Virus record (IMG/VR): IMGVR_UViG_3300045988_016904
Length of the DNA stretch: 38,264 bases
Reading direction: 5' to 3' (one strand)
Origin: a virus
Positions 2,039 to 27,354 of the stretch are shown in pieces (position 1 is the stretch's first letter; every line of letters starts with the position of its first letter). The position numbers were made by a program, and so were the translations under genes. The notes under the pieces were generated by a model. That model saw nothing but the letters and a program-made list of their open reading frames with translations. It did no database searches and was not told the DNA's origin.

Positions 2039-2262
2039 GGCGCGGTAGATAACGAGTTGGGCGCTCTCTCCCCAACAGAAGGCCGTTTGAATCGGCCTCG
2101 CGCCATATATATCGCCGATGGCCTCCCGCCGGCGACGAAACCCGGAAACGGGCAAAGCGGTTCCCCGGCACCGTAAGCCGGAGGGATGCGGGGAAGTAGC
2201 AAGGCCGGAGAGCAGCCTTGTGATAAGAGGAAAGAATGCCGGTTCAACTCCGGCCTTTCCCG
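2039..2262 (+). ncRNA. candidate structured RNA (~225 nt) with two tRNA-like acceptor/T-arm modules
   Basis: Module 1 (2039..2105): 7-bp acceptor-like stem, 5-bp T-like stem with loop TTTGAAT, and hairpin 2056..2076. Central domain: GAAA-capped hairpin 2141..2152 nested in helices 2122-2126/2180-2184 and 2128-2132/2165-2169. Module 2 (2190..2262): 7-9 bp acceptor-like stem and T-arm GCCGG-TTCAACT-CCGGC. No credible ORF. Confidence 0.5.
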
Positions 2263-2295
2263 CTATTTTTACTATTTTGCATGAGAGGTGGTGCT

Positions 2296-2715
2296 ATGGC
2301 TGCAAGGATTACAGATCGGAAGAAAAAAAGAATAATTGCCGACTGGATAGAAATGCAGTCGTACAGCGCCGTTGCAAAAAAGCATGGCGTAACTCACCAG
2401 ACTGTGAAAAGGATTGTCAGCGCTTCACCGGATATCGCCCAAAAAGTGCAGCAAAAAAAAGAAGAGAATACCGCCGACATGATGGCGTACATGGAATCAC
2501 AAAAAGCGGCGATGCAAGAAGCAATCACCTTGCATCTGAAAGCGCTCACTGACCCCGAAAAGATTTCAGCCGCAACGTTAAGCCAGATTGCAACATCTTT
2601 CGGGATTATCGTTGATAAGGCCACAAGAAACACGGCAAGCGGTAATGATAGCCTCAATAAGCTGGATGGGCTAATTAAGGAGTTCAGAGATGCTATTAAG
2701 CCCGAAACAGATTGA
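2296..2715 (+). CDS. terS: terminase small subunit (HTH-containing)
   Basis: ATG with RBS. N-terminal HTH (SYSAVAKKHGVTHQTVKRIV). Overlaps the terL start. Confidence 0.7.
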   Translation: MAARITDRKKKRIIADWIEMQSYSAVAKKHGVTHQTVKRIVSASPDIAQKVQQKKEENTADMMAYMESQKAAMQEAITLHLKALTDPEKISAATLSQIATSFGIIVDKATRNTASGNDSLNKLDGLIKEFRDAIKPETD

Positions 2716-22695: not shown

Positions 22696-22725
22696 ACACG
22701 CCCTACCAATCAAGGCAGGGCGTGT
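22696..22725. terminator. bidirectional terminator shared by the moron cassette and the integrase gene
   Basis: ACACGCCCT pairs with AGGGCGTGT. T-rich on the - strand side, CTTCTGGTTT on the + side. The integrase stop codon lies in the loop. Confidence 0.65.
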
Positions 22726-24371
22726 CTTCTGGTTTGGATGAAAACCATTCCCACAACGGTAATTGTGTTCGGATTTGCGTCCAATGGTGACCCAACGCGC
22801 CCTATATCCGAACACGGGGATACTGCCGGAGTAGGAACGCGGTATGTCTTTGATGGGATCTGCGTCAGCCGGTAGGCGGTCACAAATTTCAGGAATCCCG
22901 GCTCGTCATCGTAAACGGTGACGGAATTTACAAGCATTTCAATAAGCATGGCTTTCTGGGTTTCCAGCGGAACCGCATTTTCCCTTACCGCTTTCAGATA
23001 AACCACGACAGATTCCTTTGTGAGCGGAATCACGCCGCGTTCTTCATCGGATAGTTGTGTAGACAGTCCCTTTTTCTGGGCTTCTAATTCGGCAAGCCTT
23101 TCCACAATAGCGTCCGGCGCAACGGAAGCACATTCAAGTGCTTTCGTCAGATTGCGGATTTTATTTTCAATTTCAGAAATCTTTTTGCGTATGACCGGAA
23201 TCTGTGTATTCTTCTGAATGTCTTCCTCTGACTGCTGGGCGGCTACTTCTGCCACAAATTCGATAATTTCGTCTGTCAGTACGTCAAGAGCGTCCTGAGC
23301 CACCACATCTTCCAGCCAGTCCTTCGGGACTGGCTTTTTGTCGCATAAGCGGGCCTTCTTTCTATTGGCGCAGGAATAATAATTGTAAGTCTTCCCGCCT
23401 TTTCCTCTGCCGCACTCTCCCACCATGGGAGCGCCGCAGTGACCGCAGAAAATTTTCCCCGACAAAAGATACGGCACCTTCGCCTTACCTCTAGCTGGGG
23501 CTTGCTCGCTGGCTTTCAGTCTGGATTGTACAGCCCGCCAAAGCTCATCGGATATAATTCTGGGGACGGCGTTGTCTGTGCGAACATCGTCAAACTTGTA
23601 AACCCCGATATATTTTTCGTTCCGGAACACGTTCTTAAAACTGGACTTGTTGAATTTCGTTCCCCGCGTTGTCCGGTATCCGCGGGCGTTGAAATCGTCG
23701 CAGATCGCGGCCACGGTATCGCCGTCTGCATACCGGCGAAATGCTTCCTCCACCAAATGGGCAGTCATGGGGTCGATTTGCAGGCGCTTGTCTACGACAG
23801 TGTATCCTAGCGGTGTAGTGCCGCCTGTACTGTTCCCTTTTCTGGCTGTTTCGCTCATGCCGCGACGTACCTTCTGGGACAGCTCCAGAGAATAATACTC
23901 CGCCATACCTTCCAGCAGGGCTTCCAGAATCACACCCTCCGGGTTCTTGGAAATGCCCTCTTTCGCGGATTCCACGTTACAGCCGTTCTTACGGAGCCGC
24001 ATGCGGGCAATGGCGCTGTCTTCCCGGTTCCGGGCAAATCTGTCCAGTTTGTAAACCAAAACGGTTTTCCATGACGATCTGGCGCTGTCAGCAAGCATCT
24101 GCTGGAACGCTGGCCGCTTGTCCATGCTTGCGTGGGCGGAAATCGCCCGGTCAACATAAATGGCGGCAACCCGGTAGCTGTGGTGCTTGCAATAGGCTAT
24201 CAGCTCCCGGAGCTGCCCTTCGATGGACTGCTCTGTCTGCCGGTCGGAACTGTAGCGCATATACAGGCAGCAGACCGCCTCGCAGTCCGAGGAAAGAACG
24301 GAGGGGTTATCTGCAAACTGCTGTCTTTCCTCCGGCGTAAGAGCCGATAGATCAATTGGTATTGTTTGCAT
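22710..24371 (-). CDS. int: large serine recombinase (integrase)
   Basis: Resolvase-type N-terminus with YMRYSSDRQ (catalytic Ser). Recombinase domain, zinc ribbon (CGHCG...C..C) and coiled coil. Confidence 0.9.
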   Translation of the reverse strand: MQTIPIDLSALTPEERQQFADNPSVLSSDCEAVCCLYMRYSSDRQTEQSIEGQLRELIAYCKHHSYRVAAIYVDRAISAHASMDKRPAFQQMLADSARSSWKTVLVYKLDRFARNREDSAIARMRLRKNGCNVESAKEGISKNPEGVILEALLEGMAEYYSLELSQKVRRGMSETARKGNSTGGTTPLGYTVVDKRLQIDPMTAHLVEEAFRRYADGDTVAAICDDFNARGYRTTRGTKFNKSSFKNVFRNEKYIGVYKFDDVRTDNAVPRIISDELWRAVQSRLKASEQAPARGKAKVPYLLSGKIFCGHCGAPMVGECGRGKGGKTYNYYSCANRKKARLCDKKPVPKDWLEDVVAQDALDVLTDEIIEFVAEVAAQQSEEDIQKNTQIPVIRKKISEIENKIRNLTKALECASVAPDAIVERLAELEAQKKGLSTQLSDEERGVIPLTKESVVVYLKAVRENAVPLETQKAMLIEMLVNSVTVYDDEPGFLKFVTAYRLTQIPSKTYRVPTPAVSPCSDIGRVGSPLDANPNTITVVGMVFIQTRRHALP

Positions 24372-24981
24372 CGTGTTTACTCCTTTTTGCGTTTCGCTTT
24401 ATCACAGTTCGGACGATATACAGGCATGTTCCGATAATGGAAAAGGCCGCGACATAAACGATCGGCGAGGCGTGGCCGGACTGGAACAGGCCAAGATTCG
24501 GGTTTTGCATATCCAGAAAGACATATACCATAAGGAAGATGCCGAACAGAACCGCAAGCCCTGCGGCTCCATAAGTCACACGCTTCCAGTTATGCCGGAC
24601 GGCGGATATTTCTTTATCCATCATGTGGCTGCGCTCTTCCAACCGGGAGATGGCGTTATCTTTTTCCGAGATAAGTTCTTCCTTGTGTGAAATTTCGGTT
24701 TTCAGCCGTTCGATTTCCGCACTCTGGTCTTTCTTCGGCGGGGACAACTCCATCAGCTCATCCAGGGACAGATCAAGGTCAATGGCAATGGCGGTCACAT
24801 CATAGATACTTGGACCCGTCAGGTGGCCGGAGAAAAACTTTTTAACCATGGATTCACTTAGCCCTGTGCTGTCGATAATCTGCTGATTGGTTTTGTGCTG
24901 TTCCTCCTTTGCCCATTTCATCTTTGCGGGCAGATTATCACAAATCGTCGATATTTGTTGTATTATTTTCCGTTTTTCCAT
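24352..24981 (-). CDS. membrane-anchored XRE-like HTH protein (HTH + coiled coil + 2 TM)
   Basis: N-terminal HTH (TNQQIIDSTGLSESMVKKFFSG). TM segments VTYGAAGLAVLFGIFLMVYVFL and IVYVAAFSIIGTCLYIV. Overlaps the int start by 20 nt. Confidence 0.65.
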   Translation of the reverse strand: MEKRKIIQQISTICDNLPAKMKWAKEEQHKTNQQIIDSTGLSESMVKKFFSGHLTGPSIYDVTAIAIDLDLSLDELMELSPPKKDQSAEIERLKTEISHKEELISEKDNAISRLEERSHMMDKEISAVRHNWKRVTYGAAGLAVLFGIFLMVYVFLDMQNPNLGLFQSGHASPIVYVAAFSIIGTCLYIVRTVIKRNAKRSKHDANNTN

Positions 24982-25230
24982 TTTCTGCTCGCCCTTTCCG
25001 AAAAAATCCTACAAATTACGCTGAGAACGACTGAATTACTCGGATGCACCTTTACGTCACCACCGGCTGAACAGTATTATCATACTAGCCAAAGGTAAGG
25101 GACACACCATTCCGGCGGCAAAGCCCCGTCACCTTGTGGCACGGGTGGCGGGGCATATCTAAAGCGTTCCCCGCCGCTATGCGCATAGCGGCCACTCCCG
25201 GAATGCTCCGGGAGTGATGGACATTGAAAC

Positions 25231-25776
25231 TTATTTAGAGTTTACGGCATCATATATCACTGTATCATTGAAAATCGTCAAAAGCGCATTTTCGGGGTTC
25301 AGATCATTTTTAATATTGAGCAAAATGGAGGCATCTTGAACGCCGATTGTTTTTGCCATCTCCAATGCGGCGGAAGATAGCCCGGTTATATTTTCTACGA
25401 GCGTATTCCAAGATTCGATGCACTCGCTGTTACCAGAAACGGCCTCTGATACGCCATATGCGATACCAGTTTGCCAAATATCTATAACAATTGTAGATCC
25501 ATCACACGTGACGCTCACATTTTCAAAGCTATCTTTCAGCGTGGATTCGATTAGTACAGCCGCGGTTTCGGCGGAGACTGAGAACTCACCGGCTGTGCTT
25601 TCTTCTTGTGTGCCATCTGTTTCCGTGGGCGCTTCTGCCTCCGCTTCGGTGGGTGCTTCCGTGGCTACCGTTGTAGGCGTAGCCTCCGTGGTTTCTGGCT
25701 GCGTCTCAGCCGTGGACGCGCTGCACCCGGACAGCACAAAGCAAAGGCAAAGCAGAAAAGCGATTACTTTTTTCAT
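25231..25776 (-). CDS. lipoprotein (signal peptide + lipobox LSGC), candidate superinfection-exclusion moron
   Basis: MKKVIAFLLCLCFVLSGC followed by a Thr/Glu/Ala-rich linker. Has its own promoter. Confidence 0.75.
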   Translation of the reverse strand: MKKVIAFLLCLCFVLSGCSASTAETQPETTEATPTTVATEAPTEAEAEAPTETDGTQEESTAGEFSVSAETAAVLIESTLKDSFENVSVTCDGSTIVIDIWQTGIAYGVSEAVSGNSECIESWNTLVENITGLSSAALEMAKTIGVQDASILLNIKNDLNPENALLTIFNDTVIYDAVNSK

Positions 25777-25811
25777 AGTGGATACCTCTTTCCATAAAAT
25801 TCTACGATAAA

Positions 25812-25840
25812 ATAATACCACGTTCGGAAAATAATTTCAA
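25812..25840 (-). promoter_or_regulatory. sigma70-type promoter of the lipoprotein gene (TTGAAA-17-TATTAT)
   Basis: On the - strand: -35 at 25835..25840 and -10 at 25812..25817. Confidence 0.6.
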
Positions 25841-25965
25841 CGAATAGAAAAATTTTTTGTGCAATTTTTTAATTAGTCCAGTTTATTGGACAGATAGTAT
25901 GTTATAACTAGCGCATAAGCCGAACAGGCGTTCGATAATGATAAAAAGTAAAGGAGAGAAACAAC

Positions 25966-26097
25966 ATGCGGGAGGAAGCTTTGAAGATGTTTGAACAGCT
26001 TAGTGAAGAGGACAAGGAAAAGATCATCGCTCTTGCATCTGCTCTTTTACAAGATCAGACAGAGTTTCATAAAGACGTGCCTGTCTCTCCGGTGTGA
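25966..26097 (+). CDS. 43-aa ORF convergent with the repressor gene, overlapping its 3' end
   Basis: AAAGGAG RBS 8 nt upstream. The LKMFEQLSEEDKEKIIALASALLQ motif parallels the repressor tail FMKMYDMLTPERQARLYETLSDLV. Confidence 0.4.
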   Translation: MREEALKMFEQLSEEDKEKIIALASALLQDQTEFHKDVPVSPV

Positions 26098-26371
26098 GCA
26101 TGTCATACATCTTCATGAAAACCTCGGTTCCCTTGCTGGGAGCCGGGGCTTTTTCTGTTTCCGGGGCTTCCTCGGAGAAGTAGGAGACGGGTACACCGAA
26201 GTAGTCGGCTAACTGTGCGACATAGGTGTCACTCGGCTTGCGACCGGCTTTCCAGTTGGACACTGTTTGCTTTGGAATGCCTGCCTCGATGCCAGCTCTG
26301 GACGGCTTCAATCCTTTCTCTTTGCAAAGGTTTACAAAATTATTGTAAAAATTCACATAGTCAATCTTCAT
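26024..26371 (-). CDS. XRE-family (CI-like) repressor
   Basis: HTH segment LKPSRAGIEAGIPKQTVSNWKAGRKPS. Internal ATG with a GGAGG RBS. Confidence 0.8.
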   Translation of the reverse strand: MKIDYVNFYNNFVNLCKEKGLKPSRAGIEAGIPKQTVSNWKAGRKPSDTYVAQLADYFGVPVSYFSEEAPETEKAPAPSKGTEVFMKMYDMLTPERQARLYETLSDLVKEQMQER

Positions 26372-26399
26372 TTTTTGTACAGTCCTCCAAACATTGACT

Positions 26400-26439
26400 T
26401 TTGAGACTTTTGGTGTTGACATTTGGGACTTATGGGACT
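26400..26439. repeat. operator-like 9-mers TTTGAGACT / TTTGGGACT / TATGGGACT
   Basis: Copies at 26400..26408, 26422..26430 and 26431..26439. The latter two fill the promoter spacer. Confidence 0.55.
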
Positions 26440-26444
26440 ATACT
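26416..26444 (+). promoter_or_regulatory. consensus rightward early promoter (TTGACA-17-TATACT)
   Basis: -35 at 26416..26421 and -10 at 26439..26444. Confidence 0.7.
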
Positions 26445-26559
26445 AACGTCATGAACACCGATTCCAAAAAGGGTGCAGAAAATCACGGGGTATGAAATCC
26501 GAGTTTTCGGGAATTCAAACTCCGGCGAGTAGCGGATGGTTTATTGTTTCGGCAAATTC

Positions 26560-26588
26560 AGTATACCATGCGCTACTCAGATTTTCAA
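26560..26588 (-). promoter_or_regulatory. leftward promoter facing the rightward promoter (TTGAAA-17-TATACT)
   Basis: On the - strand: -35 at 26583..26588 and -10 at 26560..26565. Confidence 0.6.
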
Positions 26589-26630
26589 GTCTTTTGTGGA
26601 AAAAATGTTCAAAGAAATTGGCTTCGGCGG

Positions 26631-26670
26631 AAAGAAAAATTCACCCGTGGTTTGGTCACGAGTGAATTTT
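26631..26670 (-). terminator. intrinsic terminator for leftward transcription
   Basis: AAAATTCAC/GTGAATTTT plus inner CGTG/CACG stem. Followed on the - strand by TCTTT. Confidence 0.6.
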
Positions 26671-26822
26671 CCCCAAATTTATTTGCCGAAATGCGCTGCG
26701 TTGGAAGCCCGTATTCCTAAACGGCGAGAAACCCTAGATTCCCGCTTTACTTTCAACAGCAGACCAAACCTGCGTCCTTGACGCACCGTTTCACTTTGGC
26801 AGTTTCGGTTCTGCCCCTCGCC

Positions 26823-26882
26823 CTAACGCATCACGCCACCTTCGTGGTTCGGTACTGGCGGTAACAAAAGTTTGTTGGACAT
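26823..26882 (-). CDS. 19-codon ORF MSNKLLLPPVPNHEGGVMR (leader-peptide-like)
   Basis: GGAGG sits 6 nt upstream of the ATG. The ORF is ~37 nt downstream of the predicted start site of the TTGACT-17-TATAAT promoter. Confidence 0.35.
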   Translation of the reverse strand: MSNKLLLPPVPNHEGGVMR

Positions 26883-26925
26883 AAAGTACCTCCTCACTCT
26901 TTATTTGCCGCAACGGGCTATGGGC

Positions 26926-26954
26926 ATTATAGCGAACCTTTCCGCCGCAGTCAA
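26926..26954 (-). promoter_or_regulatory. near-consensus leftward promoter (TTGACT-17-TATAAT)
   Basis: On the - strand: -35 at 26949..26954 and -10 at 26926..26931. Confidence 0.65.
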
Positions 26955-26995
26955 CCAAACAAACATTTTTTTACTTAAGGAGGAGGGACAAATGG

Positions 26996-27289
26996 ATGGC
27001 AAAACTGAAACTTCCGCAGTCTTACGGGGAGCGGGAGAAGCTGGCAAAGTATATCCGGCAGACGCTGAACACCTACAATCTTCGGAACAACTGGCTGATT
27101 CAGCAGCTTCGGAACGAGGGCTTCATCATCTCCGCGACATCCCTGTGCGACGCGCTGGCAGTTCGGTGCATGACACCGAAGACGGACGAGTTTCTGGCCA
27201 GAGCGGAGCAGATTTGCAAGCTGTACGAGCAGAGCTACTTCGGTCAAACGCGATCCGGGAGCTTGGAAAACGGGTCAGAGCGTTCATGA
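26996..27289 (+). CDS. first early gene, putative small regulator (possibly frameshifted)
   Basis: AAGGAGGAGG RBS. The protein-like signal leaves this frame near 27245 and continues in the -1 frame. Confidence 0.55.
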   Translation: MAKLKLPQSYGEREKLAKYIRQTLNTYNLRNNWLIQQLRNEGFIISATSLCDALAVRCMTPKTDEFLARAEQICKLYEQSYFGQTRSGSLENGSERS

Positions 27290-27354
27290 AAGAGCAGCCG
27301 GACATCTACGAGCGGATTTACCGCGAGACATACGGCAGAGCGCCGAACTTTTGA
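27214..27354 (+). CDS. overlapping ORF or frameshifted C-terminal part of the first early gene
   Basis: The frame reads ..NAIRELGKRVRAFMKEQPDIYERIYRETYGRAPNF. A TTG start with GGAG 5 nt upstream is possible. Confidence 0.3.
   Translation: MQAVRAELLRSNAIRELGKRVRAFMKEQPDIYERIYRETYGRAPNF

What the first reader, a model, noticed from the sequence alone, without database searches (positions are those of the whole stretch)
26372..26995. Unusually long (620 bp), ORF-poor, promoter-dense lysis-lysogeny switch with face-to-face consensus promoters
The gap between the XRE repressor start (26371, - strand) and the first early gene (26996, + strand) holds no convincing ORF of 60 codons or more. It does hold three near-consensus sigma70 promoters.

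- The rightward promoter TTGACA-17-TATACT (26416..26444) has two 9-mers filling its spacer (TTTGGGACT, TATGGGACT). A third copy (TTTGAGACT) lies upstream at 26400. These look like operators.
- A leftward promoter TTGAAA-17-TATACT (26560..26588) fires toward the repressor gene. Its start is about 100 bp away, facing the rightward promoter.

This convergent arrangement allows transcriptional interference or antisense control, as described for coliphage 186 and P2. The more common arrangement is back-to-back divergent promoters.

Rightward transcripts would carry a leader of about 545 nt before the first RBS. A 13-bp interrupted hairpin (26527..26539 / 26566..26578) overlaps the leftward promoter.
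Basis: partly seen in the sequence, partly recalled or inferred. Interest (0 to 1): 0.7.

Follow-up and report, generated by a model that had tools for sequence, protein, structure and literature searches.

The report
Phage switch containing FuFi-1 RNA gene
The long gene-free gap in this temperate phage's lysis-lysogeny control region is long because a self-contained gene for FuFi-1, a known structured RNA of unknown function, has been inserted into an otherwise compact switch whose two main promoters face each other.

Summary

Rfam places a full-length FuFi-1 RNA (RF02986, 85.8 bits against a threshold of 59.6) on the minus strand at 26840..26635.

Near-identical phages have the same repressor, operators and facing promoters in a gap of only 271 bp. 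They lack exactly window 26616..26975. The FuFi-1 unit is therefore a 360-bp accessory cassette, and it explains the unusual length.

- The rightward promoter hexamers stay fixed.
- The direct repeats in the spacer change with the repressor's HTH domain.
- A second phage family with unrelated sequence has the same face-to-face layout, as in P2 and 186.

In 59 of 64 loci elsewhere, FuFi-1 lies upstream of and co-directional with a CI-like gene, antisense to the early operon. In most loci it is the 3' domain of a larger RNA of about 385 nt.

Function remains inferred. My best guess is a repressor-independent antisense and convergent-transcription brake on early genes.

The parts
26024..26371 (-). 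CI-like XRE repressor gene (115 aa). [quoted passage not shown]
   Evidence: Pfam HTH_3 at 5e-7 plus PHROG repressor families. Relatives call the same 115-aa gene.
26400..26439 (.). Operator direct repeats: TTTGAGACT (26400-08), TTTGGGACT (26422-30) and TATGGGACT (26431-39).
   Evidence: The repeats are clustered beyond chance. In relatives their sequence changes with the repressor's N-terminal HTH type while their position is kept.
26416..26444 (+). Early (lytic) promoter TTGACA-17-TATACT, with a start near 26451.
   Evidence: it is the only plus-strand site in the gap. The hexamers keep their position across four immunity alleles (L021's -10 differs by one base) while the spacer varies.
26527..26578 (.). 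Inverted repeat or hairpin with 20-nt arms, centred on the start site of the repressor promoter.
   Evidence: I1. It forms in the predicted fold of the early leader. It is invariant in all relatives, so there is no covariation test.
26560..26588 (-). Repressor promoter TTGAAA-17-TGnTATACT, with a start near 26553. It faces the early promoter.
   Evidence: It is retained in relatives that lack the cassette. The L002 family has an analogous near-consensus sense promoter downstream of its FuFi-1 terminator.
26616..26975 (.). 360-bp FuFi-1 cassette, present here and replaced by 7 nt in near-identical phages.
   Evidence: Alignment A6 and the sequences. L153-L156 have neither the FuFi motif nor the bracketing repeat.
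26618..26634 (.). Left arm of the 17-nt inverted repeat that brackets the FuFi-1 gene.
   Evidence: I2, 88% complementary. It pairs with 26938-26954 in the MFE and centroid folds of the early leader. Bracketing repeats recur with other sequences in other lineages.
26635..26840 (-). FuFi-1 RNA core (Rfam RF02986). This copy is a short-form variant with a roughly 40-nt insertion.
   Evidence: cmscan: 85.8 bits, gathering threshold 59.6, E 4.5e-17, model positions 1-175. Eleven related viral contigs carry identical or near-identical copies.
26635..26670 (-). Intrinsic terminator of the FuFi-1 RNA: a 14-bp stem, a 7-nt loop and a U run.
   Evidence: alignment and (I4).
26649..26657 (-). Terminator loop that pairs with the loop at 26762..26770 (kissing loop).
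   Evidence: Complementary at 9 of 9 positions (I16). In the family alignment the same interaction is 97% paired, and 6 of 7 pairs show compensatory changes.
26762..26770 (-). Hairpin loop that is the partner of the terminator loop.
26841..26919 (-). 5' leader of the FuFi-1 transcript, about 78 nt.
   Evidence: Inferred from the promoter position. A covariance model of the long-form 5' module does not match it.
26926..26954 (-). Promoter of the FuFi-1 RNA, TTGACT-17-TATAAT. Positions 26938-26954 also form the right arm of the bracketing repeat.
   Evidence: A sense promoter sits at a fixed distance from the motif (-271..-242) in most FuFi-1 loci elsewhere.
26996..27289 (+). First early gene (97 aa), a conserved hypothetical protein with a possible Cro-like HTH.
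   Evidence: 29 homologue clusters. The AF2 model has pLDDT 82 and four helices. The best fold matches are POU-specific and XRE-like HTH domains, but they are weak, with E above 0.5.

Best explanation
**Shown by sequence and comparison.** The gap holds two things.

1. A compact immunity switch of the P2/186 design. A CI-like XRE repressor is made from a leftward promoter (26588..26560). That promoter faces a rightward early promoter (26416..26444), whose spacer and upstream flank carry 9-bp direct-repeat operators.
2. A 360-bp accessory cassette (26616..26975) inserted between that switch and the first early gene. The cassette is a complete transcription unit: promoter 26954..26926, an RNA of about 287 nt whose 3' 206 nt are a FuFi-1 RNA, and an intrinsic terminator at 26670..26635. 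It is transcribed in the repressor direction.

**Inferred mechanism.** The only rightward promoter lies next to the repressor gene, so early transcription must cross the whole cassette in antisense.
- RNA polymerases starting at the near-consensus FuFi-1 promoter would collide with early-operon polymerases.
- The abundant, stably folded FuFi-1 RNA is fully complementary to the early leader.
- Together these would form a repressor-independent brake on early genes in lysogens, released when strong early transcription runs over the FuFi-1 promoter.

The conserved tertiary fold suggests the RNA also binds a conserved partner. That partner is unknown.
For: - **Identity.** Rfam hit above threshold over the full model. 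The loop-loop pairing is intact at 9 of 9 positions.
- **Own promoter and terminator.**
- **Cassette status.** Four contigs, plus 11 similar places, are 91-99% identical in the flanks. They carry the same switch in a 271-bp gap without 26616..26975.
- **Operators and early promoter.** Hexamers fixed, spacer repeats co-vary with the HTH domain.
- **Face-to-face layout.** Conserved in the L002 family with different sequence.
- **Only one rightward promoter in the gap.**
- **Placement rule.** 59 of 64 FuFi-1 loci have a sense-strand HTH-XRE gene within 1.4 kb downstream. In 29 of them a small antisense Cro-like gene sits between the two.
- **Functional strand is the repressor-direction strand.**
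  - Consensus fold -70.7 kcal/mol against -30.9 for the opposite strand.
  - G.U 196 against A.C 45.
  - 93.7% of cells paired against 41-46% in slid controls.
- **Promoter position.** A near-consensus sense promoter sits at a fixed position in most loci.
Against: - No expression data exist. All promoters and start sites are predictions.
- Simple antisense action does not need the strongly conserved unpaired nucleotides and tertiary contacts.
- Phages without the cassette are common, so it is not required for the switch.
- The inverted repeat bracketing the cassette could sequester or excise the antisense segment of the early leader, which would weaken an antisense effect.
- The FuFi-1 promoter is identical in heteroimmune relatives, so it is not under repressor control. 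It is unclear how its activity would be tuned.
Confidence: 0.5

Rival explanations
1. FuFi-1 is a trans-acting or protein-binding structured RNA whose job is unrelated to the switch, such as host modulation or counter-defence. On this view the immunity region is only a tolerated insertion site for an expressed moron.
For: - It is a cassette with its own promoter and terminator, present or absent among near-identical phages.
- Its sequence is identical in heteroimmune phages.
- It has an elaborate conserved fold with long-range helices and a kissing loop.
- Weinberg et al. 2017 list it among motifs whose properties suggest a sophisticated biochemical function.
Against: Its position and orientation relative to the CI-like gene and the early operon hold in 59 of 64 loci, across three different local gene orders and several Clostridia families. 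A neutral insertion site would not give this.
Confidence: 0.25
2. FuFi-1 is the sensing leader of an establishment-type repressor transcript, in the position and direction of lambda P_RE or 186 pE. Its terminator would be conditionally read through into the CI-like gene, and antisense through cro where a cro gene is present.
For: - It always lies upstream of and co-directional with the CI-like gene.
- In L125, L130 and L142 no separate sense promoter scoring 10 of 12 or better lies between the terminator and the CI gene.
- It has a complex, aptamer-like fold.
Against: - The terminator hairpin is itself part of the conserved tertiary structure. Its loop pairs with another loop and the pairing covaries. 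No alternative anti-terminator pairing was seen.
- The window and L002 families have a near-consensus repressor promoter downstream of the terminator.
- The repressor is expressed from the same promoters in phages without the cassette.
- The original authors judged a riboswitch role improbable.
Confidence: 0.15
3. The whole 620 bp is a gene-free, promoter-only switch, and its length serves interference or antisense control between the facing promoters.
For: The facing promoters and operators are real and conserved.
Against: The same facing promoters work from a 271-bp gap in near-identical phages. The extra 360 bp is a recognisable RNA gene.
Confidence: 0.05
4. The gap encodes one or more small proteins that were missed.
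For: ORFs of 55-81 aa exist on both strands. A 19-codon ORF (26882..26823, minus strand) has a good RBS.
Against: - None of the gap ORFs tested matches Pfam or PHROGs.
- The 81-aa ORF lies antisense to an RNA with strong covariation.
- Gene callers on relatives call nothing in the gap.
- The small ORFs are not conserved in other FuFi-1 loci.
Confidence: 0.03

Closest known systems
FuFi-1 RNA motif (Rfam RF02986; Weinberg et al. 2017, PMC5737381)
   Same: It matches the full model above the gathering score. It has the conserved GAACC.AAAC hairpin, the long-range stem, the 3' terminator, the loop-loop pairing and a setting upstream of an XRE gene.
   Different: - This copy scores lower than typical ones (85.8 against 105-144 bits in all but one of 18 copies).
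- It has a roughly 40-nt insertion and a poorly paired P1.
- It lacks the roughly 200-nt 5' domain that accompanies FuFi-1 in most loci.
- The family's function is unknown, so membership does not supply a mechanism.
P2 / W-phi (Pe-Pc) and 186 (pR-pL) developmental switches
   Same: - The lytic and lysogenic promoters are convergent, with overlapping transcripts.
[quoted passage not shown]
- The operators are direct repeats at the lytic promoter, and they differ between heteroimmune relatives (PMC1904263, PMC1904268, PMC2995052, PMC6593788).
   Different: - Homology of the proteins was not tested.
- The host is a Clostridia-type bacterium.
- The overlap of about 100 nt is inferred only.
- No FuFi-like RNA gene is known to me in the P2 or 186 switch regions.
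Phage antisense and immunity RNAs: lambda OOP and the P_RE transcript, P22 sar, P1/P7 c4, P4 CI RNA (from my own knowledge)
   Same: An RNA made in the lysogenic direction is complementary to early lytic transcripts. The position downstream of cro, or in the early leader, and the direction towards cI resemble P_RE and pE.
   Different: Most of those RNAs are short, and none, to my knowledge, has a fold conserved across unrelated phages. FuFi-1 is 160-385 nt, with conserved junction nucleotides and tertiary contacts across many phage lineages. No target pairing other than the cis-antisense one was found.
Phage 'morons': independent promoter-gene-terminator units inserted between genes of some relatives (Hendrix concept, from my own knowledge)
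   Same: It has its own promoter and terminator. It is present or absent among near-identical genomes. It is oriented for expression from the prophage.
   Different: The cargo is an RNA, not a protein. The insertion site is highly constrained. Inverted repeats bracket the unit.

Membership tests
FuFi-1 RNA (RF02986) | Covariance-model score at or above Rfam's gathering score over the whole model | tested here: met
   85.8 bits against 59.6, model positions 1-175, E 4.5e-17, minus strand 26840..26635.
FuFi-1 RNA (RF02986) | Conserved hairpin GC.GAAC..AAAC.GC followed by AAG | tested here: met
   GCAGAACCGAAACUGCCAAAG is present.
FuFi-1 RNA (RF02986) | Rho-independent terminator as the 3' element | tested here: met
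   A 14-bp stem followed by UUUUU at 26670..26635.
FuFi-1 RNA (RF02986) | Pairing between the internal hairpin loop and the terminator loop | tested here: met
   Window: GGUUUGGUC and GACCAAACC pair at 9 of 9 positions (I16). Family: 97% paired, 6 of 7 pairs compensatory.
FuFi-1 RNA (RF02986) | Outer stem P1 closing the 5' hairpin | tested here: inconclusive
   cmscan marks several non-standard pairs in P1 of the window copy. Other 5' pairings are possible in the single-sequence fold.
FuFi-1 RNA (RF02986) | Genomic setting next to XRE-family genes in prophage-like DNA | tested here: met
   The window has an XRE gene about 260 nt downstream on the same strand. Elsewhere this holds in 59 of 64 loci.
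Long-form FuFi RNA (about 385 nt, defined here) | 5' module H1-H3 and long-range helices joining the 5' domain to the FuFi-1 core | tested here: not met
   Model R1 finds 61 places in 78 FuFi loci. It finds nothing at 26841..26919; the best window hit is elsewhere, at E 0.28. The window copy is therefore a short form.
P2/186-type convergent-promoter switch | Lytic and lysogenic promoters face each other and their transcripts overlap | tested here: met
   Met at sequence level only: 26416..26444 (+) faces 26588..26560 (-). The layout is kept in cassette-less relatives and rebuilt from other sequence in the L002 family. Promoter activity is not testable here.
P2/186-type convergent-promoter switch | The repressor recognises direct repeats at the lytic promoter (P2 C type) | tested here: met
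   Tested by covariation only. Two repeats 9 bp apart in the spacer, plus one upstream, change with the HTH domain in four alleles. Binding was not tested.
P2/186-type convergent-promoter switch | Sequence homology of the repressor and the first early protein to C/Cox or CI/Apl | not tested
   The repressor shows only a generic HTH_3 match. The early protein has no family and only a weak HTH-like fold match.
Moron-type accessory cassette | Independent promoter and terminator, and present or absent among close relatives | tested here: met

The most novel reading that the evidence does not exclude
FuFi-1, in most phages the 3' domain of a roughly 385-nt RNA, is a dedicated RNA component of temperate-phage immunity regions in Clostridia. 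It would be a repressor-independent regulator set antisense into the early operon. Because heteroimmune relatives share it unchanged, it could also give cross-immunity that repressor specificity cannot. The inverted repeats that bracket the gene, and that only the early transcript carries, would then be part of the mechanism, for example as an RNase III or insulation stem.
Probability: 0.3. Interest if true: 0.8.

Novelty: new member of a known kind. Interest (0 to 1): 0.55.

Why it matters
FuFi-1 is one of the orphan bacterial RNAs singled out in 2017 as likely to have a sophisticated function. The only paper in the held library that names it gives no function.

This window and its relatives give FuFi-1 a concrete biological address: beside the phage immunity repressor, always in the repressor direction, and always in the path of early lytic transcription.

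They also provide a natural experiment. Near-identical phages exist with and without the 360-bp cassette, and cultured lysogens carry the long form (Bilifractor porci, Jingyaoa shaoxingensis). The function question therefore becomes directly testable.

The work also shows that the Rfam model probably covers only the 3' half of the RNA in most loci. It adds a documented convergent-promoter, direct-repeat-operator switch outside the P2/186 group.

Tried and rejected
1. **GenBank phages.** blastn of the switch and of a long-form FuFi RNA found no match, so no cultured reference phage is available.
2. **'CTCC' before FuFi-1 as an RBS.** I considered it the RBS of a divergent gene. Rejected: it is one strand of a covarying helix that joins the 5' domain to the core.
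3. **A conserved 12-codon ORF 'MTKLLTLPALLR' upstream of FuFi-1.** Rejected: the stop position varies, and the 'start codon' is the 3' arm of a covarying hairpin.
4. **The structured strand is the early strand (nut/put-like).** Rejected: the antisense consensus fold is much weaker (-30.9 against -70.7 kcal/mol), G.U outnumbers A.C on the sense strand, and the promoter and terminator are on the sense strand.
5. **Window 26860..26911 is homologous to the long-form 5' module.** The covariance model built from other loci does not find it.
6. **Gap ORFs as proteins.** No family hits.
7. **A third copy of the 17-mer GACTTTTGAGACTTTTG at 26580-26596 as an operator.** Rejected: it lies in the block that is identical in heteroimmune phages.
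8. **A PRM-like promoter back-to-back with the early promoter.** Only an 8 of 12 match exists (26467..26440). It is neither supported nor excluded.
9. **Literature on FuFi-1 or similar RNAs in Clostridia phage switches.** Nothing beyond the 2017 discovery paper. Its supplement is not held.
10. **Complementarity between FuFi-1's 3' single strand and the 5' end of the repressor mRNA** (I8). By eye it is not conserved in the L002 family, so I treat it as chance.

Full report
**What the window is.** The 38-kb window reads as a temperate phage.
- A leftward lysogeny operon runs from 22710 to 26371. It holds a serine integrase (22710..24371), an HTH+TM protein (24352..24981), a lipoprotein (25231..25776) and an XRE/CI-like repressor (26024..26371).
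- Rightward early genes follow from 26996, including a RecE-like exonuclease and RecT.
- The finding concerns the 624-bp gap between the two blocks.

**Checking the observation.**
- The three promoter-like sites are 26416..26444 (+, 11 of 12), 26588..26560 (-, 10 of 12 with an extended -10) and 26954..26926 (-, 11 of 12).
- Six such sites occur in 1.7 kb, against 1.6 +/- 1.3 in shuffles.
- The three 9-mers cluster at 26400-26439. The window has 5 matches against 0.8 expected.
- The hairpin has 20-nt arms, longer than described.
- None of the gap ORFs tested matches Pfam or PHROGs.
- Even at a relaxed threshold, the only rightward promoter-like site in the gap is the one next to the repressor gene. 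The early leader of about 545 nt therefore follows.

- Rfam places a full-length FuFi-1 RNA (RF02986) on the minus strand at 26840..26635. It scores 85.8 bits against a gathering score of 59.6, with E 4.5e-17.
- The hit ends in a 14-bp terminator hairpin and a U run.
- The terminator loop is complementary at 9 of 9 positions to an internal hairpin loop (I16).
- FuFi-1 was described by Weinberg et al. 2017. They group it with highly conserved motifs that have 3' terminators, call it an improbable riboswitch, and found no self-cleavage or other function. It is the only paper in the held library that names it.

**The FuFi-1 unit is an insertion.**
- I looked up a close homologue of the first early protein. 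This returned four metagenome contigs, L153-L156, with 11 further similar places not shown. They are 91-99% identical to the window over about 8 kb.
- They carry the same repressor, 9-mers, rightward promoter, hairpin and leftward promoter. Their gap is only 271 bp.
- The alignment shows that window 26616..26975 (360 bp) is replaced by 7 nt.
- That segment runs from a 17-nt repeat arm (26618-34), through the terminator, the FuFi-1 core, the leader and the promoter, to the other arm (26938-54).
- The unusual length is therefore explained by a self-contained accessory cassette. The underlying switch is compact and works without it.

**The switch model holds up.**
- Eleven viral contigs carry FuFi-1 copies identical or near-identical to the window's. 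To the right of about 26446 they are almost identical to the window.
- To the left they carry four different repressor alleles.
- The -35 and -10 hexamers of the rightward promoter keep their position. Only L021's -10 differs, by one base.
- Each allele has its own pair of direct repeats 9 bp apart in the spacer, plus a copy upstream.
- The repressors are domain-shuffled, with four HTH types and two C-terminal types. The repeats follow the HTH type. This is good comparative evidence that the 9-mers are operators and that the promoter is real.
- A second family (L002 and relatives), with unrelated sequence, has the same three-promoter layout:
  - a FuFi-1 promoter;
  - a near-consensus sense promoter 40-90 nt after the terminator;
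  - an antisense early promoter next to the CI-like gene, with allele-specific spacers.
- Convergent Pe/Pc promoters and direct-repeat operators that differ between heteroimmune relatives are the documented P2/W-phi design (PMC1904263, PMC1904268, PMC2995052). Interference between facing promoters is documented for 186 (PMC6593788).

**Where FuFi-1 sits elsewhere.**
- Pattern scans gave 79 FuFi-1 candidates in viral contigs and in genomes of Lachnospiraceae, Oscillospiraceae, Acutalibacteraceae and one Gastranaerophilales.
- Rfam confirmed the motif in all 17 loci tested.
- With FuFi-1 placed on the plus strand, 59 of 64 loci with enough flank have a sense-strand HTH-XRE gene within 1.4 kb downstream.
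- In 30 loci that gene follows directly, as in the window. In 29 a small antisense Cro-like HTH gene lies between.
- In both layouts the RNA gene lies in the path of the early operon and antisense to it. It is either in the early leader or just after cro.

**FuFi-1 is usually part of a larger RNA.**
- In most loci a near-consensus sense promoter sits at a fixed position about 200 nt upstream of the Rfam 5' end. Conservation fills the interval.
- A 26-sequence alignment from the inferred start to the terminator gives a consensus fold across about 385 nt.
- In that fold 93.7% of cells are paired, against 41-46% in slid controls. Compensatory changes occur in 68 of 89 pairs.
- Two long-range helices tie the 5' domain to the FuFi-1 core, and the kissing loop is 97% paired.
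- The opposite strand folds far worse, -30.9 against -70.7 kcal/mol. G.U pairs outnumber A.C pairs 196 to 45. The RNA is therefore made in the repressor direction.
- A covariance model of the 5' module finds 61 places in 78 loci but nothing in the window. The window family, L128/L143 and L130 are short forms.

**Bracketing repeats (unexplained).**
- Inverted repeats that flank the whole RNA gene recur with unrelated sequences in several lineages. Among 55 distinct loci, 23 score well above shuffled controls.
- Only the early-strand transcript would carry both arms.
- Within the window and L002 families there is one fully compensatory double change. There are also three single-arm transitions, and all three give G.U on the early strand.
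- In the window the stem forms in both the MFE and the centroid fold of the early leader, which has a z-score of -4.4.
- This could be a processing or insulation stem, or a recombination boundary.

**Mechanism.**
- Shown: the parts, their order, their strands, and their conservation.
- Inferred: the RNA is made from its own strong promoter independently of the repressor, and early transcription must run head-on through the unit. The unit would then act as a brake on early genes by polymerase collision and by pairing with the early leader. It would in turn be silenced when early transcription is strong.
- The conserved tertiary fold is not explained by this and points to an unknown partner.
- The rivals are a trans-acting RNA unrelated to the switch and a conditional-terminator leader for establishment transcription of the repressor. 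Neither is excluded.

**First early gene.** The 97-aa product is conserved in 29 clusters, all unnamed. It is predicted with pLDDT 82 as four helices. Its best fold matches are POU-specific and XRE-like HTH domains, with TM 0.56-0.72 but E above 0.5. It may be the Cro/Cox analogue. This is a lead, not a result.

**Verdict.**
- The feature is a new, divergent member of a known orphan RNA family, sitting as an accessory cassette inside a new member of the known convergent-promoter class of phage switches.
- Interest is moderate to high. The reason is the context rule, the larger RNA and the natural with-and-without pairs, which make the function of an orphan RNA testable. The switch length itself is not the reason.

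Noticed in passing
L055, L136, L009 and about 60 other loci: the roughly 230 nt upstream of the Rfam FuFi-1 hit, same strand: FuFi-1 is the 3' domain of a covarying RNA of about 385 nt that starts at a fixed near-consensus promoter. The Rfam model covers only about 160-175 nt of it. The window family, L128/L143 and L130 are short forms without this 5' domain.
   Followed up: yes
window 26618-26634 and 26938-26954; also L002 family, L121, L125, L128, L150, L152: Inverted repeats of 16-29 nt bracket the whole FuFi RNA gene. They recur with unrelated sequences in several lineages. Only the early-strand transcript carries both arms. Their meaning is unknown.
   Followed up: partly
window 26024-26371 and homologues in L005, L018, L020, L021, L041, L043, L079: The repressors of this phage family are domain-shuffled: four N-terminal HTH types combined with two C-terminal types. 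The operator repeats follow the HTH type.
   Followed up: yes
L124 3351..3132 and 2619..2444 (minus strand): Two FuFi-1 copies lie on the same strand of one Lachnospiraceae contig, about 500 nt apart.
   Followed up: no
window 2190-2263 (+): A tRNA-Ile (anticodon GAT) gene sits just upstream of the structural gene block of the phage.
   Followed up: no
window 25231-25776 (-) and 24352-24981 (-): A lipoprotein gene and an HTH protein with a C-terminal membrane segment lie between the repressor and the integrase. They are candidate prophage-expressed exclusion or regulatory genes. Relatives L153-L156 lack the lipoprotein gene.
   Followed up: partly
window 25966-26097 (+): A 43-codon ORF with a good RBS runs convergent with the 3' end of the repressor gene and overlaps it. 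It has no family match.
   Followed up: partly
window 26996-27289 (+) and 27286-27354 (+): The first early protein is a conserved hypothetical protein with a predicted four-helix, HTH-like fold, though the structural matches are weak. A 22-codon ORF follows it through an ATGA overlap.
   Followed up: partly
window 26527-26578: The 20-nt-arm inverted repeat is centred on the inferred start site of the repressor promoter. It could be a DNA operator for the early HTH-like protein rather than an RNA hairpin. It is invariant in all relatives, so neither reading can be tested.
   Followed up: partly
L131 651-999 (+): A tmRNA gene lies about 3.5 kb from the FuFi-1 locus, which suggests a prophage integrated near ssrA.
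   Followed up: no
L121 (Bilifractor porci) and L136 (Jingyaoa shaoxingensis NSJ-46): Cultured isolates carry long-form FuFi RNA loci next to CI/Cro-like genes. They are usable as experimental systems.
   Followed up: no
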